A stretch of DNA of 64,000 nt from Candidatus Poribacteria bacterium (GCA_965242965.1 OZ251518.1:5280001-5344000), one strand, 5' to 3'; positions 54,217 to 64,000 are shown, counted from the stretch's first letter. Numbers and translations: made by a program. Notes: generated by a model not told the origin, from the sequence alone.

Positions 54217-54288
54217 TGCGCGGGAAACGCCGCTTTGTTCCGTAGGGCGAGGGACAGGCCCTCGCCCTACAACTCAAAGGTAACGTTG

Positions 54289-54981
54289 ATGAAGGAAACC
54301 GTCCATCACATTAGCACGCTCATTCGGAAAGACCTCGGGCTCCATTTCCGTTCAAAAGAGACATTGGCTTTAATCTTTGTCTTTAGTCTGCTAGTTGTCC
54401 TCATCTTCGCGTTCGCGTTCGGGCCGATTTTCCCAGAGAAAGCGGAACGCGGCAAACTCACCGCCAGCGTCCTCTGGGCCGCCTTCGTCTTCGCAGGAAT
54501 TATCACCTTAAACCGTTCATTCGCGCTTGAAAGGACAAGTGGTGCCTTGCACGGTATCCGACTAACAGGCGTTGATGCTAGCAACTTCTACCTCGCTAAG
54601 GTTATCAGCAACCTCATTTTTCTTTTGCTGTTAGAAGTTGTCATCACGCCGATTGCACTGCAATTCTTGGATCTCCTTAATTTCGTGACGGTAGGCGTGC
54701 TGCTGAAATTGATAGGCGTATTGAGCATCGGCACCCTCGGCTTCTGTGCCGTCGGCGTGCTCCTGGCAGGCATGTCAACGAGTGTCGGCGGTGAAAGCCT
54801 CCTCTCGGTAATCTTACTGCCGCTCGTTCTCCCGATTATCATGGGCGGCGCGAAATGCACCGTATCCCTGCTCGTCAATGGGACGGCGGCAAGCGGGATG
54901 TGGCTGAATTTGTTAGTCGGGTATAGTCTCATTTTCTTAGCCGCCGCCTATCTCCTCGCCGAGGCTGTGATTGAGGAATAA
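54289..54981 (+). CDS. ccmB: Heme exporter permease
   Basis: Six hydrophobic helices; RKDL, NRSF..E, LLSVILLPL. Confidence 0.88.
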   Translation: MKETVHHISTLIRKDLGLHFRSKETLALIFVFSLLVVLIFAFAFGPIFPEKAERGKLTASVLWAAFVFAGIITLNRSFALERTSGALHGIRLTGVDASNFYLAKVISNLIFLLLLEVVITPIALQFLDLLNFVTVGVLLKLIGVLSIGTLGFCAVGVLLAGMSTSVGGESLLSVILLPLVLPIIMGGAKCTVSLLVNGTAASGMWLNLLVGYSLIFLAAAYLLAEAVIEE

Positions 54982-54995
54982 CAGAGGAACATCTT

Positions 54996-57672
54996 ATGTC
55001 TAAAAAACCGATCGATCATTATCAACACCGCGATAAACGCGCCAACAACCCAACGCAAGAGCTCAGCGGGTTTGCCGAAGACGCGGAGACGCAACCCGAC
55101 ACTATCCGCTACCCGCGCGATACTGCGCTGGACCCGCAGCTCGTCTGGCGCGGCAAGGACGCACAGAACGCTGAAGCCCTCGGGGTTAACGCCGTGCCAA
55201 TCTATGCGCAGGAGCACATCCAACCGCAAGCGATTATTGAGGCTCTCCGCGCCCAAAAAGCGCAGGACGAACCGGGGCAAACCGAGATGCTCTTTGAGGG
55301 ATTCAACGCGCTAGAATTTGGACAGCGCATTGAGTTCTATCAGCACGAACAGAATTGGAATAACCGCTTCATTTTAGGCGATTCGCTCCTCGTTATGAAT
55401 TCCCTCGCCGAGAAAGAGGGGCTTAAAAGCCGAGTGCAGACGATATACTTCGATCCGCCTTACGGCATCAAATTCGGGAGTAACTGGCAAGTCAGCACCC
55501 GAAAACCGAGCGTCGGCGATACGAAAACGGAAGATGTGACGCTCCAACCGGAACAAATCCGCGCGTTCCGAGATACGTGGGAACTCGGCATCCACTCCTA
55601 TTTGGCGTATCTGCGCGACCGGCTTACTGTGGCGCGCGAACTCCTCACCGATAGCGGCAGTATCTTCGTCCAAATCAGTGACGAAAACGTCCATCTCGTC
55701 CGTTCGCTATTAGACGAGGTTTTCGGCAGTGACAATTTTGTCACCACAATTGCTTGGACCCGGGCGGAAACTACTTCTTCGACATCCATCTCGTCGGTAT
55801 TTGATTATCTGTTATGGTATGCCAAAGATCGGAATCGGATGAAGTATCGGCAGCTCTATATGGAATGGGACGAACGCAAACCGGACCCGCTCCTTAAATC
55901 TTATGAGCGGGTGCAGCTGCCGGATGGAACACAGCGCAGAATGACGCGTAAAGAGAAGCAAGATCCGAGTCTGCTGCCTGTGGGAAGTCGGAGATTAGTG
56001 GATTATTCGGTTACCTCAGAGACAGCAGGTAATGCCACTTATGAATATGAATTTGAAGGCAGAGGTTTCACGCCAACAAGCGATAGAGGTTGGGCTGCCA
56101 GCCGCGAAGGACTAGATAGACTTGCCAAACAGGGCAGGCTTTTGGCACCGGGTAAATCTTTGCGCTATATTCGATACGCTACCGATTCACCCGGCCGCGC
56201 GCTTACGAACCTTTGGACAGATACCGCGGGAGGACGCTCTGGGAAAACCTATGTCGTTGAGACGCAACCGAAAGTCATCCAACGGTGCATTCTGATGACA
56301 AGCGACCCGGGTGATCTTGTCCTCGATCCCACTTGCGGCAGCGGCACCACCGCCTACGTCGCAGAACAATGGGGCAGACGGTGGATAACAATTGATACCT
56401 CCCGTGTTGCCCTCGCCTTGGCGCGCACGCGGCTCATGTCCGCTGTCTATCCTTACTATCGTTTGGAAGATGCCACCGATATCAAGCAGGGGTTTTCCTA
56501 CAAAACCGCGCCGCACATCAGCCTCTCGGATATGGCGAACAACCTTGAGATTGACGACATCCATGCCGAGTATGCACCGAAATTAGACGAGATTCGTGAA
56601 TTACTAAACTCGCGTTTAGAGAAGGGGGGGGTCTTGGGAAGATTGGGAAGTTCCTCAAGAACCCGATCCTTCGTGGAGTGCGGAAACGCAGCAACTGCAC
56701 AAACGGTGGCTTTCCCTCAAGCGTGAGCGGCAGGCGGAGATGGATGCGTCTACGGCGCGTCGTGCCACCAGCGAGATACTCTATGATAGACCGCATGTTG
56801 ACAGAAGTCGGACGCGCGTCGCCGGTCCGTTTACGGTGGAGAGTTTATCGCCGCACCGCATGCAAGAGGGTGCCGATACTGCGCCGCCTGTGGAATCACC
56901 GGATTTTCATGCGCACATCGTGGAGCATCTGAAGAGTGCGGGTGTGCAGAATCGCATTCGGGAACAACGGCTAACGTTTGACTGGCTGTCGCCGTTCCCC
57001 GGCGAGTATCTCCATGCCGAGGGTGCCTATACCGACGAAAACGGTGAATCACAGAGTGTCGCGATTAGCATCGGGCCGCAGTATGAGACTGTGGGTAGAC
57101 AGTGGATGGAAGGCGCAGCGCGCGAGGCGATGCGTCGTATCCCGAAATTCAAGCAGCTCATCGTTTTAGGGTTCGCCTTTGAGGGATACACGGCGGATGA
57201 GCGCACCCGCATGGGGAGTCTCCCGATTCTTCCGATTAAGATGAGCCCGGAATTGATGATAGGCGAACTCAAGAACACCGGCGCGGGCAATCTCTTCATG
57301 AACTTCGGCGAACCTGACATTGAACTCCAACGGCAGGATGATGGCAGACTCGTCGTGAAGTTGTTAGGCGTTGATGTGTTCGATGCACGGCAAGGCTTGG
57401 TGCGTTCGGATAACCCTGATGAGATTGCCTGCTGGTTTATTGACACCGACTACAACGATGAGGCGTTTTTCATGCGGCATGCCTATTTCACCGGCGCAGA
57501 CGAACCTTACGAGAAACTGAAGCAGACGTTGAGTGACGACATTGACGAGGCGGCGTGGGAGAGTCTGTATCGGACAGAGAGTCTTCCGTTTATGGGGTCT
57601 ACCTCCGGCAAAATCGCGGTGAAAGTGATTAATCACTACGGGGACGAGGTCTTGAAGGTTTACGAGGTGTAA
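54996..57672 (+). pseudogene. mod: Type III-like DNA methyltransferase frameshifted at a G8 tract (56624-56631)
   Basis: FDPPYG and DPTCGSGTT; removing one G joins to SWEDWEVP...RQAEMDAS and the C-terminal IAVKVINHYGDEVLKV. Confidence 0.88.
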
Positions 57673-57685
57673 TTTTTCCTAAAAG

Positions 57686-57714
57686 TTGCATTTCGTCGCG
57701 CGATGTGGTATAAT
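57686..57714 (+). promoter_or_regulatory. Sigma70-type promoter of the ATPase-PIN array
   Basis: TTGCAT-17 bp-TATAAT with TG extension. Confidence 0.75.
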
Positions 57715-57738
57715 TACAGTCAAAGGAGACAGGAAGCC

Positions 57739-59055
57739 ATGATTACGCATATCCGCGTGAAAAACTTCAAATCGTGGGCGGACAGCGGAGCGGTGAAACT
57801 CGCGCCGCTGACGGGATTTTTCGGTACGAATAGTTCTGGGAAGAGCAGTCTGTTGCAGATGCTGTTGTTGCTGAAGCAGACTATCGGCCGCGAAGAGGTG
57901 CTCTTCTTCGGTGATGAGTCTTCGTTGGTGAATCTGGGAAGTTTCCACGATGTCATTCATGGGCATGACACCGATGCCTTGCTGGAGTTGGAATTCGGAT
58001 GCAACCTCTGGCAACCGGGGGGAATCAGGATTCTTGGCAGAGATACCGACTGGAGAATACAGAATCTTCAAATCTCTGTTGACACTTTCACTTTTACCAC
58101 GTCTATCCGGCAAAAACAGCATTCTCTCAGCGTTGCTTCCATTCGCTATGGTTTGGACTCCGGCGATGTTCCAGAGGTTCGTTGGGAGAATGGCAGCTGG
58201 TCTTATAGAGAATTGCTTGGCAGACAACCTAGTTGGCGTGAGCAAATATCGGATTGCTACGGTGGTTCTGTTTCAGCAGATGTCGTAAAGCCGCTCGCCT
58301 TTGCATTTGAGAGGCAATTTTCTCACGTGTATTACCTCGGGCCGGCTCGGGTTACGCCCCAGCGATGTTATCATTGGGAAGGCACACATCCGCGTGACAC
58401 CGGGTTGTGGGGCGATAAAACGATTGACGCTCTACTCTCCGCTCGCGTGAAACGGCTGATAACCCACTATCAGGGAGAACACCGGCAAATCGAGGAGCGG
58501 GTATCAGCATGGCTCCAGGCTATGGAGCTCGCCTCTGCTTTTTCGCTAGATTCCAGTAACAATGGCGACGGAAGGGACTATGAAGTTCGCATCAAAAAAG
58601 ATAGCGTCAGTCCTGAGGTAACGCTGGTTGACATGGGGTATGGGTTATCGCAGTTTCTCCCTGTCCTCGTTCTCTGCTATTACGCACCGGAGGGTTCAAC
58701 GCTCATTCTGGAGCAACCGGGCATGCACCTGCATCCGAAGGTTCAATCGCAACTGGCAGACCTGCTAATAGAGGTTGTCACGGAACGGAATCTCCAAGTG
58801 CTGGTGGAGAGCCACAGCGAACATCTACTCAACCGGTTGCAGCGGCGCATCGCCGAAGAGCAGATTTCTGTTGATAAAACTGCCCTCTATTTTTGTCGTA
58901 ACGAGCGTGGCGTTTCCGCTCGTGAGCGGCTAGAAGTAGACGAATTCGGTAACATCGCGAATTGGCCGGAAAACTTTTTCGGCGACGAGATGGGCGATTT
59001 GTTGGCGATGGCTCAAGCGCAAATGGAACGGCAAAAACGGGCGGGGGAGTCATGA
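57739..59055 (+). CDS. ABC/AAA_15-type ATPase with DUF3696-like C-terminus, copy 1
   Basis: NFKS, GTNSSGKS, GYGLSQ, LILEQPG.HLHP, ESHSEH, WPENFF. Confidence 0.88.
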   Translation: MITHIRVKNFKSWADSGAVKLAPLTGFFGTNSSGKSSLLQMLLLLKQTIGREEVLFFGDESSLVNLGSFHDVIHGHDTDALLELEFGCNLWQPGGIRILGRDTDWRIQNLQISVDTFTFTTSIRQKQHSLSVASIRYGLDSGDVPEVRWENGSWSYRELLGRQPSWREQISDCYGGSVSADVVKPLAFAFERQFSHVYYLGPARVTPQRCYHWEGTHPRDTGLWGDKTIDALLSARVKRLITHYQGEHRQIEERVSAWLQAMELASAFSLDSSNNGDGRDYEVRIKKDSVSPEVTLVDMGYGLSQFLPVLVLCYYAPEGSTLILEQPGMHLHPKVQSQLADLLIEVVTERNLQVLVESHSEHLLNRLQRRIAEEQISVDKTALYFCRNERGVSARERLEVDEFGNIANWPENFFGDEMGDLLAMAQAQMERQKRAGES

Positions 59056-59582
59056 ACGCAGTTATCGTAGACACGAATGTCATCGGCATCGCAAATCGTA
59101 AAGGAGAGCACGCGTCACTGGCCTGTATTGAACACTGTCAACGGCGGCTCCATCAGATTCTCTCCCGCCGCGAAAAGGTGGTTGTTGACGATGCGTGGCG
59201 AATTTTTGGAGAATACACCAGATACGTAGACACCGGCACCCGTAAAGGGATCGGCGATATCTTCGTGAAAACATTGCTGCAAAACTTAAGGAAGCCTGCG
59301 ATTTGTGAGATGGTGCATATCACGCCATTGGCTGGAAACGGCACCGATTTCGCTGAGTTTCCTACCGATGCGGCGTTGAGCAAATTCGATCCGGACGACA
59401 GAAAATTTATCGCTGTCGCCTGCGCGTATCGGCAAACCTCCGGACAATCCGCGACTATCCTGCTAGCGATAGATAGAGGGTGGCTTGACTTTGTGGGTGC
59501 TTTGGCGGCACATGAAGTCGCGATTGACTTCCTCTGTGAGGCGGACATTCAGCGACCTCGTCCAGATGAACAGAGGAGTTAA
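59052..59582 (+). CDS. PIN-like nuclease, copy 1
   Basis: VIVDTNV, GEY, DPDDRKFIAVA, AID; ATGA overlap. Confidence 0.75.
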   Translation: MNAVIVDTNVIGIANRKGEHASLACIEHCQRRLHQILSRREKVVVDDAWRIFGEYTRYVDTGTRKGIGDIFVKTLLQNLRKPAICEMVHITPLAGNGTDFAEFPTDAALSKFDPDDRKFIAVACAYRQTSGQSATILLAIDRGWLDFVGALAAHEVAIDFLCEADIQRPRPDEQRS

Positions 59583-59585
59583 GAA

Positions 59586-60914
59586 ATGTTGACGCACATC
59601 CGACTGCAAAACTTCAAATCGTGGGCAGACAGTGGGGAGGTGGTTCTTGCGCCGCTGACAGGCTTTTTCGGAACGAATAGTTCTGGGAAGAGCAGTCTGT
59701 TGCAGATGCTGTTGTTGCTGAAGCAGACTATCGGCCGCGAAGAGGTGCTGTTTTTCGGGGACGCGCAGTCGCTGGTGAATCTGGGGAGTTTCGGTGACGT
59801 GATTCATGGACACAACACCGATGCTTCGCTGACATTGGAATTCGGATGCAAGCCCCGGAAACCCGTGAAGATCAGCGTGCCTGACGTGAACGCCACTGAA
59901 CATCCAGACGCTCTTTCTGCCCCCATTGGTAGTTTCACTTTCACCACGTCTATCCGTGAAGAAAGGGGAAATTTGAAAGTTGCGCGCCTTCGTTACAAGC
60001 TGCTTTCCGGGGATGTTTCCAAAGTTTCTTGGGAAAAGGGACGCTGGATTCACAGCAATTCGCGCGGCGAATCCGTAGGAGGGAGTAGCACTATCAAGAA
60101 CTGCTGCGGGTCCCCTGAGTGGCGTTTAAGTGAAGTATTAGGGCCTCTGACCGCCGCGTTTGAAGATCAATTCTCTCGCGTTTATTACCTCGGTCCAACC
60201 CGTGTTCATCCGCAACGGCACTATCATTGGAATGGCAAGCATCCGGTGGAGATGGGTTTGTTTGGGGATCAGGCGATCGACGCGCTCCTTTCGGCGCGCG
60301 TGCGGAATCTGAAAACTTCCCACAACGGCAACGGCGTTCCAATTGAAAACCGAGTATCAGCGTGGCTGCAAAAGATGGAGCTCGCGCACGATTTTTGGCT
60401 GGGCCCGAACAGGTCTTCGGACAATAGTACCTACGAGGTTCGCATTCAAAAAAGCCCTTCTAGCGCAAGGGTGACTTTGGCAGACATGGGCTACGGCTTG
60501 GCGGATCTGTTGCCGATCTTAGTCCACTGCTACTATGTGCCAGAAGGCTCGACGTTGATTCTAGAGCAGCCCGGCATTCATCTGCATCCGCATACACAGG
60601 CGCAACTCGCCGACCTGTTTTTAGAGGTGATTGCCGAACGAAATCTCCAAATTCTGATTGAGAGCCACAGCGAGCAGTTGTTGACGCGCCTGCAGCGGCG
60701 CATTGCGGAAAAAAAGGTTGCACAGGACACCATCGCCTTGTATTTTTGCCGTAACACCGACGGTGCCTCTACTATTGAGAAATTAGAGGTAGACGCACTG
60801 GGGGATATCCACAACTGGCCGGAATACTTCTTCGGGGATGTGATGGGCGACATGTTCGCAGTCACTGATGTCCAAGTTGAACGTCTTCAATCCCAAGAGG
60901 AAGCGAGCGGTTAG
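59586..60914 (+). CDS. ABC/AAA_15-type ATPase with DUF3696-like C-terminus, copy 2
   Basis: Same motifs as copy 1; divergent central region. Confidence 0.88.
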   Translation: MLTHIRLQNFKSWADSGEVVLAPLTGFFGTNSSGKSSLLQMLLLLKQTIGREEVLFFGDAQSLVNLGSFGDVIHGHNTDASLTLEFGCKPRKPVKISVPDVNATEHPDALSAPIGSFTFTTSIREERGNLKVARLRYKLLSGDVSKVSWEKGRWIHSNSRGESVGGSSTIKNCCGSPEWRLSEVLGPLTAAFEDQFSRVYYLGPTRVHPQRHYHWNGKHPVEMGLFGDQAIDALLSARVRNLKTSHNGNGVPIENRVSAWLQKMELAHDFWLGPNRSSDNSTYEVRIQKSPSSARVTLADMGYGLADLLPILVHCYYVPEGSTLILEQPGIHLHPHTQAQLADLFLEVIAERNLQILIESHSEQLLTRLQRRIAEKKVAQDTIALYFCRNTDGASTIEKLEVDALGDIHNWPEYFFGDVMGDMFAVTDVQVERLQSQEEASG

Positions 60915-61453
60915 TGAACACCGTTATCCTTGATACCAACGTGATTGTCATCGCGAATGGCCAAGCACCTCAGGCATCCGCGGATTGCGTGAGGCGATGT
61001 CGTCAGCGGCTGGCTCTTATTCTCAGCGGTTCGGAGAAAGTGGTGTTAGACTACGGACAGCGCATTCTGCAAGAATACAGGCGAAATCTGAGAGGTGAAA
61101 GACATCCTCGGCGCGGGCGCGGCGATCTGTTTTTGCAGTGGTTAAGACAAAATCAGTGGAACGAGGAAAGGTGCTCCCTTGTCCATATTACGCCGCTAAC
61201 CGGCAACGGTAACGATTTCGCCGAATTCCCGAACGAGGATACCGCGTTAGCGACTTTTCACAAAAAGGATAGGAAATTCATCGCTGTCGCCTGCGCGTAT
61301 CGGCAAACCTCCGGGCACGCCGCGACTATTCTGCTGGCGATAGATAGAGGGTGGCTTGACTTTGTGGGCGCGCTGACGGCACATGAAGTCGCGATCGACT
61401 TCCTCTGCGAGAGGGACATTCAGCAGCCCCGTCAAGACGAACTGAGGAATTAA
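60914..61453 (+). CDS. PIN-like nuclease, copy 2
   Basis: VILDTNV, QEY, KDRKFIAVA, AID. Confidence 0.75.
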   Translation: MNTVILDTNVIVIANGQAPQASADCVRRCRQRLALILSGSEKVVLDYGQRILQEYRRNLRGERHPRRGRGDLFLQWLRQNQWNEERCSLVHITPLTGNGNDFAEFPNEDTALATFHKKDRKFIAVACAYRQTSGHAATILLAIDRGWLDFVGALTAHEVAIDFLCERDIQQPRQDELRN

Positions 61454-61456
61454 GAC

Positions 61457-62764
61457 ATGTTGACGCATATCCGCGTGGAAAACTTCAAATCGTGGAGAGA
61501 CAGCGGCGAGGTGGTTCTTGCGCCGCTGACAGGCTTTTTCGGTACGAATAGTTCGGGGAAAAGCAGTCTGTTGCAGATGCTGTTGTTGCTGAAGCAGACG
61601 GCTGAGCGTTCAAACGCAGAGGAAGTTATCTTCTTCGGTGATGATACTTCAGCAGTCAATCTTGGCGATTTCAATGCAGTGGCTCACGGACATAAAAATA
61701 ATGAGATCCTCAGGTTAGAATTTGGGGGAGAGCTCAGTTGTCCGATCGGCACTCCGATAGATAACGGTCCTGTGAGAAAAATAGATGGGTTCACATTTGC
61801 AACATTTATTACCCAAGGACTAGAAGGGCTCAGCGTTGACAAACTTCGCTACCGTAGTCTTGAGCGTAATACGCCTGATGGCCGCGTAGATGTATCTTGG
61901 AAGCACCCTGATTTCTTTCACGTGACCGGCCAAGACAGGAGAAAAAAGGTAAAGATAAAAAATAGCTATGGTGTGTCGCCCGATGAGGACAGGACTCTGG
62001 ATGGGTTCACCACCGCCTTTGAAGTTTTGTTTTCTCACCTCTATTACCTCGGTCCCACTCGGGTAGAACCACAACGGCATTACCATTGGGAGGGCGAGCA
62101 GCCTGAGGGCATTGGGCAGTGGGGCCAAAATGCAATTGACGCGCTTCTTTCCGCGCGCATCGATCGGCTCACAACACCGAGCCAAAACGGCGATGTCCCA
62201 ATTGAGGAGCGGATATCAGCATGGCTCCGAAAAATGGATCTCGCGCATGCCTTTTCGTTAAAGCGAACGGGCCTGTGGGATGAAAAGAACTATGCCTTTC
62301 GTATCCAACAAAGTCCGGCGAGTCCGGCGGTGACGCTGGTTGACACGGGCTATGGCTTATCGCAATTTCTCCCGGTGCTCGTCCTCTGTTACTATGCACC
62401 GGAAGGCTCAACGCTCATTCTGGAGCAGCCGGGCATGCACCTGCATCCGAAGGTGCAATCGCAATTGGCGGATTTGCTAATAGAGGTTGTCACGGAACGA
62501 AACCTCCAAGTTTTGGTGGAGAGCCACAGCGAACATCTGCTGACTCGGTTACAACTTCGCATCGCAGAAGAAAAGATTGGCGCGGACAAGGCTGCTCTCT
62601 ATTTCTGTGAAAATAAGGATGGAGTTTCCGAAATGAAATCGTTGGAACTTGACGAGTTCGGAAACATCAAAAACTGGCCCCCAGACTTCTTTGGCACTGT
62701 CAGAGGAGACCTGGTTAAAATGACGAAGGCCCAGATGAAACGTCAGAAGCGAACGGAGGGATAA
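61457..62764 (+). CDS. ABC/AAA_15-type ATPase with DUF3696-like C-terminus, copy 3
   Basis: Same motifs as copy 1; divergent central region. Confidence 0.88.
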   Translation: MLTHIRVENFKSWRDSGEVVLAPLTGFFGTNSSGKSSLLQMLLLLKQTAERSNAEEVIFFGDDTSAVNLGDFNAVAHGHKNNEILRLEFGGELSCPIGTPIDNGPVRKIDGFTFATFITQGLEGLSVDKLRYRSLERNTPDGRVDVSWKHPDFFHVTGQDRRKKVKIKNSYGVSPDEDRTLDGFTTAFEVLFSHLYYLGPTRVEPQRHYHWEGEQPEGIGQWGQNAIDALLSARIDRLTTPSQNGDVPIEERISAWLRKMDLAHAFSLKRTGLWDEKNYAFRIQQSPASPAVTLVDTGYGLSQFLPVLVLCYYAPEGSTLILEQPGMHLHPKVQSQLADLLIEVVTERNLQVLVESHSEHLLTRLQLRIAEEKIGADKAALYFCENKDGVSEMKSLELDEFGNIKNWPPDFFGTVRGDLVKMTKAQMKRQKRTEG

Positions 62765-63306
62765 TGGACGCTGTTGTCGTAGATACTAACGTTATCCTCG
62801 TCGCTAAAGGGATGGCATGTCAGGCATCGCAGGCGTGCGTCCAGACATGCATAGAGCGGCTAGACCGGATTGTTAAGGGGCCGGAGAGAGTCGTCATTGA
62901 TGACAACTGGGAGATCCTCGGCGAATATTCGGATTATGAAGCCGATTCAACGACAGCGGCGCGGACCGGATGGGGATTTTTGGAGTGGTTGATGCGAAAT
63001 CACGAGAATCCGAAACAGTGTGTGAAGGTGCATATCACCCCTTCGGTAGATGGGACCGGATTTGAAGAGTTTCCCACTGACCCGGCATTAAGCGAGTTTG
63101 ACCCGGGGGACAAAAAATTTATCGCTGTCGCTGTCGTTTACGAAAACGAGCATCGTCAAAAAGTGCCAATCTTACAAGCGGTAGACAGCAATTGGTACGG
63201 ATTCCGAGAGGCATTCGCCCGGAATGGATTGATAATTGACTTCATTTGCGCGGAAAACATCCGACTTTTGTATCAAAGGCGCGGTGAAAGACGCGCGAGA
63301 AACTAA
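62764..63306 (+). CDS. PIN-like nuclease, copy 3
   Basis: VVVDTNV, GEY, DPGDKKFIAVA, AVD. Confidence 0.75.
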   Translation: MDAVVVDTNVILVAKGMACQASQACVQTCIERLDRIVKGPERVVIDDNWEILGEYSDYEADSTTAARTGWGFLEWLMRNHENPKQCVKVHITPSVDGTGFEEFPTDPALSEFDPGDKKFIAVAVVYENEHRQKVPILQAVDSNWYGFREAFARNGLIIDFICAENIRLLYQRRGERRARN

Positions 63307-63356
63307 CCGTTTGTGTTGGTTTTGGACTCAATACTTTTGTCTATGGAGAAATTCAC

Positions 63357-64000
63357 ATGCCGAAAGTGAACATAGAAAACCCTGTCATCAACAGCCCGTT
63401 TGACGAACCGCAACGCCACTTCAAATTCGATGAACGCGGCATCACCGAAAACATCGTCAACGGAAGACGCAAAAGCGAATACTTCATTCCGGTGCCGAAA
63501 CCGAGGAAGCAGCCGAAAGAGGTTCAGACGCAACTTGAACTGCACGTGCCCGAACTCCGAGAGGCCAACGCGTTTATCAACCGCGTGCGGGAAGAAGTCA
63601 GCGTCTGGCGCAAAAACGGTTACCCCGGCGTAACGGAAACAACGAGACGCTTGCTTACATACTGGAACGACACCGAACGCGAGCCGAGGCTGTTTTTCTG
63701 TCAACGCGAGGCAGTTGAAACCGCTATCTATATCCACGAAGTGGAAAATCCTCGGCGCGGGGACTCAATACACAAGACGCTGCTGAAAGCGAATGAAGAA
63801 GCGAACCCCGGGCTTTTCCGCATCGCTTTCAAAATGGCGACAGGGAGCGGCAAGACTTTGGTGATGGCGATGCTCATCGTTTATCATACGTTGAACAAAA
63901 TCGCTGCACCGCGCAATCCCCGTTTTTCCGATGCGTTTCTTGTCGTCACACCGGGGCTGACAATCCGCGACCGGCTCCAAGTGCTACGTCCAGAAAACCC
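63357..64000 (+). CDS. res: Type III-like restriction subunit, truncated by the window end
   Basis: MPKVNIENPVINSPFDEP..., LFFCQREAVET, KMATGSGKT; absent from the ORF track because there is no stop in the window. Confidence 0.88.
   Translation, partial: MPKVNIENPVINSPFDEPQRHFKFDERGITENIVNGRRKSEYFIPVPKPRKQPKEVQTQLELHVPELREANAFINRVREEVSVWRKNGYPGVTETTRRLLTYWNDTEREPRLFFCQREAVETAIYIHEVENPRRGDSIHKTLLKANEEANPGLFRIAFKMATGSGKTLVMAMLIVYHTLNKIAAPRNPRFSDAFLVVTPGLTIRDRLQVLRPEN

What the first reader, a model, noticed from the sequence alone, without database searches (positions are those of the whole stretch)
57686..63306. Triplicated ABC-ATPase + PIN nuclease operon inside a restriction-modification locus: candidate new defence system
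Seen: three translationally coupled ATPase (~440 aa) and PIN-like (~180 aa) pairs share one promoter between mod and res, and all are intact. The ATPase N- and C-terminal motifs are conserved while roughly residues 85-190 diverge strongly. All three have EQPG where I would expect EQPE. Established: ABC-ATPase sensor plus nuclease pairs underlie PARIS and Septu, and a DUF3696 ATPase occurs in Menshen, but I know no named two-gene system with this PIN partner. Inference: an array of sensors with different specificities, each gating an RNase effector and possibly detecting anti-restriction proteins.
Basis: partly seen in the sequence, partly recalled or inferred. Interest (0 to 1): 0.85.

Follow-up and report, generated by a model that had tools for sequence, protein, structure and literature searches.

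The report
Three known HEC-03 defence pairs in tandem
Three side-by-side copies of an already described two-gene anti-phage system (an ATP-binding sensor plus a PIN nuclease, called HEC-03) sit inside a restriction-modification locus of a sponge-symbiont bacterium, and what is of interest is that each copy carries a different, fast-changing sensor segment.

Summary
Six tightly packed + strand genes form three ABC-ATPase (DUF3696) plus PIN pairs between a type III-like mod and res.

Both proteins match PADLOC models of HEC-03 (ATPase E 1e-105 to 1e-113, PIN E 1e-24 to 1e-27). Payne et al. 2024 (bioRxiv 10.1101/2024.01.29.577857) tested this ATPase + PIN system in E. coli, and both genes were required.

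EQPG is a clade trait, not a peculiarity of this window: 66 of 73 ATPases in the closer Poribacteria clade have it, and the distant clade has EQPE.

What I did not find in print:
- mod-(ATPase-PIN)x1-3-res recurs in Candidatus Poribacteria; 22 of 52 closer loci are bracketed by mod and res.
- The ~100-residue insert averages 24% identity against 68% for the rest of the protein (2,850 pairs). It is replaced between close orthologues, and it differs between copies of one locus in 24 of 26 pairs.
- Cassette order differs in the nearest relative.

Sensing of anti-restriction proteins is untested. mod carries a frameshift at a G8 run.

Verdict: a known system in a new architectural variant, of moderate interest.

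The parts
54996..56726 (+). mod, N-terminal reading frame (N6_N4_Mtase catalytic domain), type III-like methyltransferase
   Evidence: Pfam N6_N4_Mtase E 5e-32. PADLOC MTase_III PDLC03632 E 1e-158, model positions 61-613 of 983.
56625..56632 (+). G8 homopolymer at which the mod reading frame shifts
   Evidence: Three-frame translation against the L018 Mod, the DNA itself, and an alignment with relatives. 24 of 27 relatives' mod genes are a single open frame.
56740..57672 (+). mod, C-terminal part in a different frame
   Evidence: PADLOC MTase_III PDLC03632 E 1.7e-76, model positions 650-982 of 983.
57686..57714 (+). Promoter-like element: TTGCAT, 17 nt, TG-n-TATAAT. An AGGAGA ribosome-binding site follows, before the ATG at 57739.
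   Evidence: Sequence read. A like element lies about 30 nt upstream of the first ATPase in 16 of 24 embedded relatives. The consensus scan did not pick it up. There is no transcript evidence.
57739..59055 (+). ATPase 1: ABC ATPase with DUF3696 tail, HEC-03 ATPase family. Variable insert at about 58000-58290.
   Evidence: Pfam AAA_15, AAA_21 and DUF3696. PADLOC PDLC04148 E 5e-113. Sister to L012 unit 2.
59052..59582 (+). PIN 1: stand-alone PIN-like nuclease, HEC-03 PIN family
   Evidence: PADLOC PDLC04147 E 1.3e-27. AF2 model pLDDT 91.9. D7, D46, E54, D116 and D141 are invariant in 95 sequences. PIN_3 matches below threshold.
59586..60914 (+). ATPase 2. Variable insert at about 59844-60152.
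   Evidence: PADLOC PDLC04148 E 4e-107. AF2 pLDDT 90.6. Foldseek matches SMC, OLD, PtuA and GajA heads at E about 1e-12.
60914..61453 (+). PIN 2 (GTG start, overlaps the ATPase 2 stop by 1 nt)
   Evidence: PADLOC PDLC04147 E 7e-24. Alignment.
61457..62764 (+). ATPase 3. Variable insert at about 61727-62002.
   Evidence: PADLOC PDLC04148 E 5e-105. Sister to L012 unit 3.
62764..63306 (+). PIN 3
   Evidence: PADLOC PDLC04147 E 7e-24.
63357..64000 (+). res, 5' part. The gene runs past the window end and is 987 aa in the genome (L010 357-3320).
   Evidence: Pfam ResIII. NCBIfam BPTD_3080 family restriction endonuclease, 1097 bits against a cutoff of 800. Followed by enolase.

Best explanation
The region is a tandem array of three paralogous HEC-03 anti-phage modules, lodged between the mod and res genes of a type III-like (BPTD_3080 family) restriction-modification system in a Candidatus Poribacteria genome.

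Components of each module:
- An ABC-type ATPase with Walker A GxxxxGKS, a Walker B region reading LILEQPG, a GYG signature and a C-terminal DUF3696 helix.
- A translationally coupled stand-alone PIN nuclease of 176-180 aa that keeps the acidic residues expected of an active PIN site.

Proposed mechanism (inferred, not shown here):
1. The ATPase holds the PIN nuclease inactive, probably through the DUF3696 tail. This is by analogy with the contact predicted between NsnB and NsnC in Menshen.
2. A beta-rich, hypervariable insert of about 100 residues (Insert 1 of the ABC fold) recognises a phage-derived trigger.
3. Trigger binding, coupled to ATP binding or turnover, frees or activates the PIN RNase. 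The RNase then stops the infection, probably at a cost to the cell.

Because the three inserts are unrelated to one another, the array would widen the range of triggers covered. A conserved promoter-like element ahead of the first ATPase would express all six genes together, independently of mod.
For: Family membership:
- All three ATPases hit PADLOC PDLC04148 (E 1e-105 to 1e-113). All three partners hit PDLC04147 (E 1e-24 to 1e-27).
- HEC-03 was described as ABC ATPase + PIN. It reduced the efficiency of plaquing of at least two phages in E. coli, needed both genes, and was toxic when induced (Payne et al. 2024, passages read).

Folds:
- ATPase model pLDDT 90.6. It matches Smc4, OLD, PtuA and GajA heads at E about 1e-12.
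- PIN model pLDDT 91.9. Most of the top Foldseek rows are PIN-like or NYN folds.
- Pfam PIN_3 matches 55 of 95 family members at E <= 1, best 3.8e-6.
- D7, D46, E54, D116 and D141 are invariant in 95 sequences.

Coupling:
- Stop and start codons overlap in the window and in 78 of 94 related pairs.

Sensor module:
- The insert averages 24% identity against 68% for the rest, over 2,850 pairs of 76 ATPases, with r = 0.30. In 48 of the 72 pairs that are at least 80% identical outside the insert, the insert is under 40% identical.
- There are 38 insert clusters at 50% identity. In 24 of 26 within-locus pairs the inserts are at most 45% identical.
- Nucleotide identity falls from about 85-95% to about 40-55% exactly over the insert in two of three orthologous units of the nearest relative.

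Autonomy from the RM system:
- A fourth, solo pair lies elsewhere in the same genome, between a sulfatase gene and an isochorismatase gene.
- Solo pairs are common in relatives.

DUF3696-PIN contact:
- Predicted for Menshen NsnB and NsnC in PMC12065111 (passages read).
- The ATPases hit NsnB at E 1e-61 to 1e-64.
Against: - Nothing here shows phage defence, RNase activity or ATPase-PIN binding for these proteins. The tested HEC-03 homologue is a different sequence from another organism.
- The catalytic-glutamate position after Walker B is Q, and the following PE is PG in this clade. ATP hydrolysis may therefore be slow or absent, and the role of nucleotide is unknown.
- Foldseek support for PIN is weak in score: best E 0.029 with probability 0.96. 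A profile search of PDB sequences found nothing.
- High insert divergence could partly reflect relaxed constraint. dS in the insert is at or near saturation, so dN/dS there is not informative.
- No transcript evidence for the operon was obtained.
- The host mod is frameshifted in this assembly. Any functional interplay with an active RM system is therefore doubtful in this strain.
Confidence: 0.7

Rival explanations
1. Guard-of-restriction model. The embedded pairs are functionally tied to the RM system. They are triggered when a phage anti-restriction protein or another insult disables Mod/Res, in the way PrrC guards EcoprrI or PARIS senses Ocr. Different inserts would recognise different anti-restriction proteins.
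For: - Embedding between mod and res recurs: 22 of 52 closer loci are bracketed by mod and res, and 3 more show one flank at a contig edge or without the other gene.
- The pairs are always co-oriented with the RM genes.
- Payne et al. discuss this logic for embedded systems, and note PrrC as almost exclusive to type I RM.
Against: - The same genome has a solo pair far from any RM gene.
- 26 of the 52 closer loci are solo pairs, and none of the 26 distant-clade loci is bracketed by mod and res.
- Embedded and solo copies are intermixed on the tree.
- HEC-03 defended E. coli without a cognate RM system, in a delta-RM strain.
- mod is frameshifted here, yet all six genes are intact.
- The same interval also holds unrelated cargo in relatives. 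That fits a permissive insertion site better than a functional partnership.
Confidence: 0.15
2. Addiction or toxin-antitoxin-like modules. PIN is a toxin and the ATPase its protein antitoxin. Their main role would be to stabilise the RM locus or the cassette itself, not to defend against phage.
For: - PIN (VapC-like) proteins are classic toxins.
- HEC-03 was toxic on induction in E. coli.
- Pfam describes AAA_21 as "putative AbiEii toxin, Type IV TA system".
- Cassettes move between sites and change order.
Against: - A hypervariable surface module with dozens of types is not expected of a pure addiction module.
- The tested homologue gave phage-specific protection that needed both genes.
- There is no VapB-like antitoxin gene.
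Confidence: 0.1
3. Decaying duplicates of no current function. Gene copies are drifting apart after duplication, and the variable segment simply reflects loss of constraint.
For: - The insert is very divergent, and one relative (L012 unit 1) has a deletion of about 50 residues in it.
- mod is broken in this assembly.
Against: - All six ORFs are full length, with invariant Walker A, H-loop and PIN acidic residues.
- dN/dS outside the insert is 0.15-0.22.
- The AF2 model is confident through most of the insert, with pLDDT mostly 83-97 and one block at 63.
- The paralogue lineages are old and kept across species.
Confidence: 0.03

Closest known systems
HEC-03 (Hma-embedded candidate 03; Payne et al. 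2024, bioRxiv 10.1101/2024.01.29.577857; PADLOC-DB v2 models PDLC04148 and PDLC04147)
   Same: - A two-gene ABC ATPase + PIN system, with strong HMM matches for both genes.
- The ATPase gene comes first and is coupled to the PIN gene.
- Found embedded in a DNA-modification defence locus and also solo.
   Different: - Here the pairs are embedded in a type III-like RM. [quoted passage not shown]
- Here there are tandem arrays of up to three divergent pairs. In the paper's main text 'tandem' and 'multiple copies' each occur 0 times.
- This clade has EQPG in place of EQPE.
- Naming is inverted between sources. The paper calls the ATPase HEC-03A, whereas the PADLOC model named HEC-03B is the ATPase.
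- I could not see the paper's supplements or figures, so the tested sequence and any array examples there are unknown to me.
Menshen (NsnABC); PMC12065111
   Same: - An NsnB-like ABC ATPase with a DUF3696 tail (PADLOC NsnB E 1e-61 to 1e-64).
- A degenerate Walker B dyad (EN in NsnB, EQ here) and a GxG signature motif.
- A PIN-fold partner encoded next to the ATPase.
- Marked domain polymorphism.
   Different: - There is no NsnA (ParB-DUF262) gene.
- The partner is a short stand-alone PIN with its acidic residues kept. NsnC is an inactive PIN fused to a C-terminal nuclease.
- The polymorphic part here is the ATPase insert. In Menshen it is NsnA-N and NsnC.
PARIS (AriAB), Septu (PtuAB), Gabija (GajAB), OLD nucleases
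   Same: ABC ATPase sensor paired with a nuclease effector. Structural matches to PtuA, GajA and OLD heads at E about 1e-11 to 1e-12.
   Different: - The effector is PIN, not TOPRIM or HNH.
- HMM matches are much weaker (AriA 1e-21 to 1e-25, GajA about 1e-10).
- The DUF3696 tail is a further difference.
PrrC anticodon nuclease embedded in type I RM (EcoprrI)
   Same: An ATPase-linked RNase lodged between RM genes. Payne et al. note it as almost always RM-embedded.
   Different: - PrrC is a single polypeptide with a different nuclease domain.
- Its activation by a phage anti-restriction peptide is recalled from my own knowledge and was not checked here.
- The pairs here also occur away from RM genes.
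VapBC toxin-antitoxin pairs
   Same: PIN-fold nuclease. The best Foldseek row is an M. tuberculosis TA complex chain (7vwo_A). Payne et al. call the HEC-03 PIN VapC-like.
   Different: There is no VapB-type antitoxin. The upstream partner is a 435-450 aa ABC ATPase.

Membership tests
HEC-03 (PADLOC) | ATPase matches the HEC-03 ATPase HMM (PDLC04148) | tested here: met
   E 5e-113, 4e-107 and 5e-105 for the three ATPases. This is the best of 78-101 PADLOC families hit per ATPase.
HEC-03 (PADLOC) | Partner matches the HEC-03 PIN HMM (PDLC04147) | tested here: met
   E 1.3e-27, 6.9e-24 and 7.2e-24, covering model positions 3-153 of 159. This is the only PADLOC hit for each partner.
HEC-03 (PADLOC) | The two genes are adjacent and on the same strand | tested here: met
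   Overlapping stop and start codons in all three pairs.
HEC-03 (PADLOC) | ABC ATPase fold (not AAA+) | tested here: met
   AF2 pLDDT 90.6. Foldseek matches Smc4, OLD, PtuA, GajA and Rad50 heads at E 1e-12 to 1e-10.
HEC-03 (PADLOC) | Partner has a PIN fold | tested here: inconclusive
   - The model is confident (pLDDT 91.9).
- Foldseek scores are weak: best is 7vwo_A at E 0.029, probability 0.96. Most of the top rows are PIN-like or NYN folds.
- Pfam PIN_3 matches 55 of 95 members, all below threshold.
HEC-03 (PADLOC) | Conserved acidic residues of a PIN active site | tested here: met
   D7, D46, E54, D116 and D141 (PIN 1 numbering) are invariant in 95 sequences, including all three window copies. 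Their geometry in the model was not inspected.
HEC-03 (PADLOC) | Anti-phage activity that needs both genes | not testable with these tools
   Shown only for the homologue tested by Payne et al..
Menshen (NsnABC) | NsnA (ParB-DUF262 + ParBDB) gene in the locus | tested here: not met
   Only ATPase and PIN genes lie between mod and res. No DUF262 hit appeared in any of the nine proteins scanned.
Menshen (NsnABC) | NsnB-type ABC ATPase with DUF3696 | tested here: met
   PADLOC NsnB E 1e-61 to 1e-64. Pfam DUF3696 E 1e-8 to 2e-11.
Menshen (NsnABC) | NsnC: an inactive PIN-like N-domain fused to a C-terminal nuclease effector | tested here: not met
   The partners are 176-180 aa single-domain proteins that keep their acidic residues.
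PARIS (AriAB) | AriA ATPase plus AriB TOPRIM/DUF4435 effector | tested here: not met
   AriA models hit only at E 1e-17 to 1e-25. There is no TOPRIM partner.
Type III restriction-modification | Mod methyltransferase and Res helicase-nuclease genes, co-oriented | tested here: met
   - PADLOC MTase_III E 1e-158 and 2e-76 for the two mod parts.
- Pfam ResIII.
- NCBIfam BPTD_3080 family restriction endonuclease, 1097 bits.
- PADLOC REase_III hits are only weak, about 1e-6.
Type III restriction-modification | Intact mod reading frame | tested here: not met
   The frame changes at G8, 56625-56632. 24 of 27 relatives' mod genes are single open frames. A homopolymer assembly error was not excluded.
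VapBC toxin-antitoxin | Small VapB antitoxin gene upstream of the PIN gene | tested here: not met
   The upstream gene is the ABC ATPase in all three pairs.

The most novel reading that the evidence does not exclude
In Poribacteria the mod-res interval of a type III-like RM system serves as a cassette site. HEC-03 units are stacked there (up to three), reordered, and re-equipped with exchangeable hypervariable Insert-1 modules by recombination between the conserved flanks of paralogues.

This would give a combinatorial innate "sensor array". The logic parallels target-recognition-domain shuffling in type I HsdS, or the domain polymorphism of Menshen. Here the polymorphic element lies inside the ABC ATPase itself, and the insert alone would set phage specificity.
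Probability: 0.35. Interest if true: 0.6.

Novelty: new variant of a known kind. Interest (0 to 1): 0.4.

Why it matters
The two-gene system is not new, so the headline claim falls.

The comparative data add something I did not find in the literature I could search:

- HEC-03 is near-universal and multi-copy in a sponge-symbiont phylum. 123 of 176 genomes have it, with up to five copies, against 0 of 14 control genomes.
- It repeatedly forms arrays inside a type III-like RM locus.
- Its ATPase carries a sharply bounded, hypervariable insert that is replaced between close relatives.

If the insert sets trigger specificity, these natural arrays give a ready-made panel for finding out what ABC-ATPase defence sensors recognise. 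Payne et al. state that this is an open question for HEC-03.

It would also show how immune repertoires diversify in symbionts of animals that filter large volumes of seawater.

Tried and rejected
- ATPase 2 + PIN 2 complex prediction, both chains given as alignments (collected): no verdict, score 0.01 against a mark of 0.32. It is not used for or against binding.
- Sequencing runs: no RNA holder was listed, so nothing can be said on expression.
- Contigs of four runs laid on 54996-63998: these are short Logan contigs from mixed strains.
  - Two bins of X10 had no cover.
  - Joints such as 59326 to 61255 (X1 and X4, side 27) and 58382 to 62133 (X6, side 37, 38 other letters between) could be recombinant or shorter arrays. 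They are too short-sided to count, and I do not use them.
- Profile of the PIN family against PDB sequences: 0 hits at E <= 10.
- Generic promoter and terminator scan: 8 promoter-like sites against 5.7 +/- 2.2 in shuffles, and 6 terminator-like sites against 10.1 +/- 2.9. It is uninformative, and it missed the TTGCAT-17-TATAAT element.
- dN/dS script: it stopped on a pattern-match error after 3 of 14 pairs. dS in the insert was about 1 or undefined, so I make no claim of positive selection. I replaced this approach with alignment-based identity comparisons.
- Recent local triplication: rejected. The three copies fall in different old lineages, and A1 and A3 each have an orthologue in L012.
- Hma context: rejected. 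The flanks are an MTase_III-type Mod and a BPTD_3080-family Res.
- Diversity-generating retroelement as the source of insert variation: considered and set aside without a dedicated search. Insert nucleotide identity of 40-55% is far beyond the adenine-directed changes I recall for such elements.
- Krishnan et al. 2020 (ABC ATPase classification) could not be read: it is not held and was not found by title. It may already describe DUF3696-ATPase/PIN neighbourhoods.
- Supplements and figures of Payne et al. were not seen. They may show arrays or type III contexts.

They come from one genome per species, and some genomes contribute several loci. The fractions I give are therefore descriptive, not unbiased frequencies.

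Full report
**1. What is there**

Between 54996 and the window end, the + strand carries, in order:
- mod, in two frames: 54996-56726 and 56740-57672.
- Six tightly packed genes: ATPase 1 (57739-59055), PIN 1 (59052-59582), ATPase 2 (59586-60914), PIN 2 (60914-61453), ATPase 3 (61457-62764) and PIN 3 (62764-63306).
- The start of res, from 63357.

Each ATPase stop overlaps its partner's start (ATGA, TAGTG, TAATG). Each PIN stop is 3 nt from the next ATPase start.

The ORF of ATPase 1 opens at 57703. The paralogues all begin MLTHIR or MITHIR, an AGGAGA precedes the ATG at 57739, and the nearest relative has a stop in the upstream extension. The start is therefore 57739.

The ATPases are 56-62% identical to one another and the PINs 42-63%.

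In the genome, res is intact at 987 aa and is followed by enolase. A ccmB-like membrane protein gene lies upstream of mod.

**2. What the proteins are**

*ATPases*
- They carry Pfam AAA_15, AAA_21 and a C-terminal DUF3696.
- The AlphaFold model of ATPase 2, built from an alignment of 103 sequences, has pLDDT 90.6. It matches ABC-type heads (Smc4, Thermus OLD, PtuA, GajA, Rad50) at E 1e-12 to 1e-10.
- The partly invariant motifs are Walker A G29-x4-G34-K35-S, the E327-Q328-P329-G330 Walker B region, G302-Y-G304, and H361.

*Partners*
- They have no Pfam hit above threshold.
- PIN_3 matches 55 of 95 family members at E <= 1, with a best E of 3.8e-6.
- The model has pLDDT 91.9.
- Foldseek's best rows are weak in score: 7vwo_A at E 0.029, probability 0.96. 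Most of the top ten are PIN-like or NYN folds, namely an M. tuberculosis TA complex, PRORP, Nmd4 and an exosome complex chain.
- D7, D46, E54, D116 and D141 are invariant across 95 sequences.

**3. It is a described system**

- In PADLOC-DB v2 the three ATPases hit PDLC04148 at E 5e-113, 4e-107 and 5e-105. The three partners hit PDLC04147 at E 1e-27 to 7e-24. Both are models of HEC-03. The next-best ATPase hits are NsnB of Menshen (1e-61 to 1e-64) and PDC-M55A.
- I read passages of Payne et al. 2024 (bioRxiv 10.1101/2024.01.29.577857). They define HEC-03 as an ABC ATPase with a PIN-domain protein found embedded in Hma systems. It reduced plaquing of at least two phages by orders of magnitude in E. 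coli MG1655 delta-RM, both genes were required, and induction was toxic. The paper calls the PIN VapC-like.
- The paper names the ATPase HEC-03A, whereas the PADLOC model called HEC-03B is the ATPase.
- I read passages of the Menshen analysis (PMC12065111). NsnB has the same kind of degenerate motifs: DE replaced by EN, and SGG replaced by GxG. Its DUF3696 helix is predicted to hold the PIN-like N-domain of NsnC. This is the basis for my inference about how the ATPase and PIN touch here.

**4. EQPG**

- All four copies in this genome have LILEQPG.
- Of 101 related ATPase hits, 100 could be read as ORFs. Their motifs are EQPG 66, EQPE 27, EEPG 3, EQPD 2 and unmatched 2.
- The split is by clade. 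The 73 ATPases of the closer Poribacteria loci (L012-L063) have EQPG in 66 cases and never EQPE. All 27 ATPases of the distant loci (L064-L089: other Poribacteria, Chloroflexota, Gemmatimonadota, Acidobacteriota and a cyanobacterium) have EQPE.
- EQPG is thus a fixed clade trait that is compatible with long-term retention. Its effect on ATP turnover is unknown.

**5. Context in relatives**

The window lies in a 5.70 Mb, two-contig genome. Its nearest relatives are Candidatus Poribacteria MAGs.

*Closer-clade loci (52)*
- 22 are bracketed by mod and res. Of these, 2 have three pairs (L012, L039), 12 have two pairs and 8 have one pair.
- L020 has a second mod between its two pairs.
- L043 has three pairs followed by res, and its contig begins inside the array.
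- L014 and L042 show mod only.
- L016 has the pair upstream of mod.
- 26 are solo pairs or solo doublets.

*Distant-clade loci (26)*
- None is bracketed by mod and res.

*Other context*
- The window's genome also has a fourth, solo pair at about 4.14 Mb, between a sulfatase gene and an isochorismatase gene.
- Across the phylum, the HEC-03 PIN model finds 213 matches in 123 of 176 genomes, and in 101 of 133 high-quality genomes. There are up to five matches per genome. By my count of the table, 22 genomes have three or more. None of 14 control genomes has a match.
- The PIN family has 901 representatives at E <= 0.001 in the 1.84-billion-protein library.
- The mod-res interval also holds other cargo in relatives: WD40 propeller genes in four loci, a Uma2 nuclease, an IS200-like transposase and a DDE transposase.
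- These figures come from the best 80 of 263 confirmed matches and are descriptive only.

**6. Old paralogues, shuffled cassettes, replaced inserts**

*Tree of 103 ATPases*
- Window A1 is sister to L012 unit 2 (SH-aLRT 93).
- A3 is sister to L012 unit 3 (98).
- The solo A4 is sister to the solo L057 (100).
- A2 attaches, with weaker support (87), to a clade of mostly solo copies.
- Embedded and solo copies, and array positions, are intermixed. The array is an assembly of old lineages, not a recent triplication.

*Nearest relative, L012*
- Its modC and res fragments match the window's at 87% and 86%.
- Its units are, in order, A2/P2-like (79% and 80%), A1/P1-like (71% and 84%) and A3/P3-like (70% and 87%).
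- Units 1 and 2 are therefore swapped relative to the window.

*Mosaicism within the window, at the DNA level*
- Units 1 and 2 share a 66-nt exact run near the ATPase 5' end.
- Units 1 and 2 are about 90% identical in the PIN 3' half.
- Units 1 and 3 are 83-93% identical in the ATPase 3' third.
- This is the pattern expected of gene conversion between paralogues.

*The insert (ATPase 2 residues 87-189)*
- It is a beta-rich segment in the model. It corresponds in position to Insert 1 of the ABC fold as described by Payne et al..
- It averages 24% identity against 68% for the rest, over 2,850 pairs of 76 closer-clade ATPases, with r = 0.30.
- In 48 of the 72 pairs that are at least 80% identical outside the insert, the insert is under 40% identical.
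- The reverse also occurs. The two copies in L040 are 99% identical in the insert and 71% elsewhere.
- With pairwise realignment, the 76 inserts form 38 clusters at 50% identity. In 24 of 26 within-locus pairs the inserts are at most 45% identical.
- Between orthologous units of the window and L012, nucleotide identity falls from about 85-95% to about 40-55% exactly over the insert in two of three units. The third unit keeps its insert, but with a deletion.
- dN/dS outside the insert is 0.15-0.22. Within it, dS is about 1 or saturated, so I claim replacement or very fast divergence, not demonstrated positive selection.

**7. Expression signals**

- TTGCAT (57686-57691), 17 nt, then TG-n-TATAAT (57709-57714) lies between mod and ATPase 1.
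- A TAnAAT lies 15-60 nt upstream of the first ATPase start in 16 of 24 embedded relatives. In most of these it has a conserved TTGAAT or TTGCAT 17 nt upstream of it, at a fixed distance of about 30 nt from the ATG.
- In relatives, ATPase-PIN junctions overlap by 1 or 4 nt in 78 of 94 pairs. PIN to next-ATPase gaps are 26 nt or less in 15 of 21 cases.
- This fits an internal promoter driving the whole array, but no transcript data were obtained.

**8. The mod frameshift**

- The window's mod changes frame at a G8 run, 56625-56632.
- Of 27 mod genes in relatives, 24 are single open frames, 2 have one in-frame stop and 1 changes frame.
- Logan contigs of three runs cover the place, and none of the listed indel rows changes the run by 1 or 2 bases. 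A fourth run has CAG inserted behind it. Two indel rows were not shown, and one of the runs may be the source sample.
- I cannot tell a real frameshift or a phase-variable tract from a homopolymer error.
- From general knowledge, not tested here, Res activity in type III systems depends on Mod. If the frameshift is real, the RM system is probably off in this strain while all six embedded genes are intact.

**9. Mechanism and rivals**

*Most likely (0.7)*
- These are three independent HEC-03 modules. Each would be an ATPase sensor that holds and then releases a PIN RNase on sensing a phage cue through its insert.
- The family assignment is shown. The sensing, gating and RNase steps are inferred.

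*Rivals*
- The guard-of-restriction version (0.15) is weakened by the solo copies, by the intermixing on the tree, by the unrelated cargo at the same site, and by the tested homologue working in a delta-RM host.
- A pure addiction role (0.1) does not explain dozens of insert types.
- Decay (0.03) is contradicted by the conservation.

**10. Novelty and verdict**

- The system is known.
- What I did not find in the searchable literature is its recurrent stacking inside a type III-like RM locus in Poribacteria, the EQPG clade, and the sharply bounded, exchangeable hypervariable insert.
- I could not see the supplements of Payne et al. or the Krishnan et al. 2020 paper. Either may bear on this.
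- I rate it a new variant of a known kind, with interest 0.4.

Noticed in passing
window 56625-56632: The mod gene changes reading frame at a run of eight G. 24 of 27 relatives' mod genes are single open frames. This could be a real inactivation, a phase-variable tract (as I recall for type III mod genes in other bacteria) or a homopolymer assembly error.
   Followed up: partly
G000:C1:4144047-4145944 (L011 10047-11956): A fourth ATPase-PIN pair stands alone between a sulfatase gene and an isochorismatase-family gene. It is orthologous to the solo pair in L057 (80% identity, SH-aLRT 100).
   Followed up: yes
L022 8960-9889; L023 12260-13213; L025 11988-12938; L040 11849-12787: WD40 beta-propeller genes of about 310 aa lie inside the mod-res interval of four relatives, next to the HEC-03 pairs. 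Their role there is unknown.
   Followed up: partly
L038 11883-12623; L054 7106-7669; L050 13164-14327 (-); L037 11944-13110; L056 7037-7957 (-); L034 8780-9688 (-): Other cargo sits in the same interval: a Uma2-family putative nuclease, an IS200-like transposase, a DDE transposase inserted within an array, and three ORFs of 302-388 aa with no Pfam hit.
   Followed up: partly
L020 7290-19514: This relative has mod, pair, a second mod copy, pair, res. A whole mod gene is duplicated inside the array.
   Followed up: no
L012 496-5935 compared with window 57739-63306: In the nearest relative, the first two cassettes are in the opposite order. Its first ATPase has a deletion of about 50 residues in the insert.
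   Followed up: yes
L040 10001-11248 and 12903-14141: Two ATPases of one array have 99% identical inserts but are only 71% identical elsewhere. This is the reverse of the usual pattern and suggests a recent transfer of the insert between frames.
   Followed up: partly
window 54235-54981: The gene just upstream of mod looks, from its sequence, like a ccmB-type haem-exporter membrane protein, and enolase follows res. The RM and HEC-03 block therefore sits between housekeeping genes, with no obvious mobile-element borders.
   Followed up: no
PADLOC-DB v2 models PDLC04147 and PDLC04148: Naming is inverted between the database and the paper. The model labelled HEC-03A is the PIN protein and HEC-03B is the ATPase, whereas the paper's text calls the ATPase HEC-03A.
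   Followed up: yes
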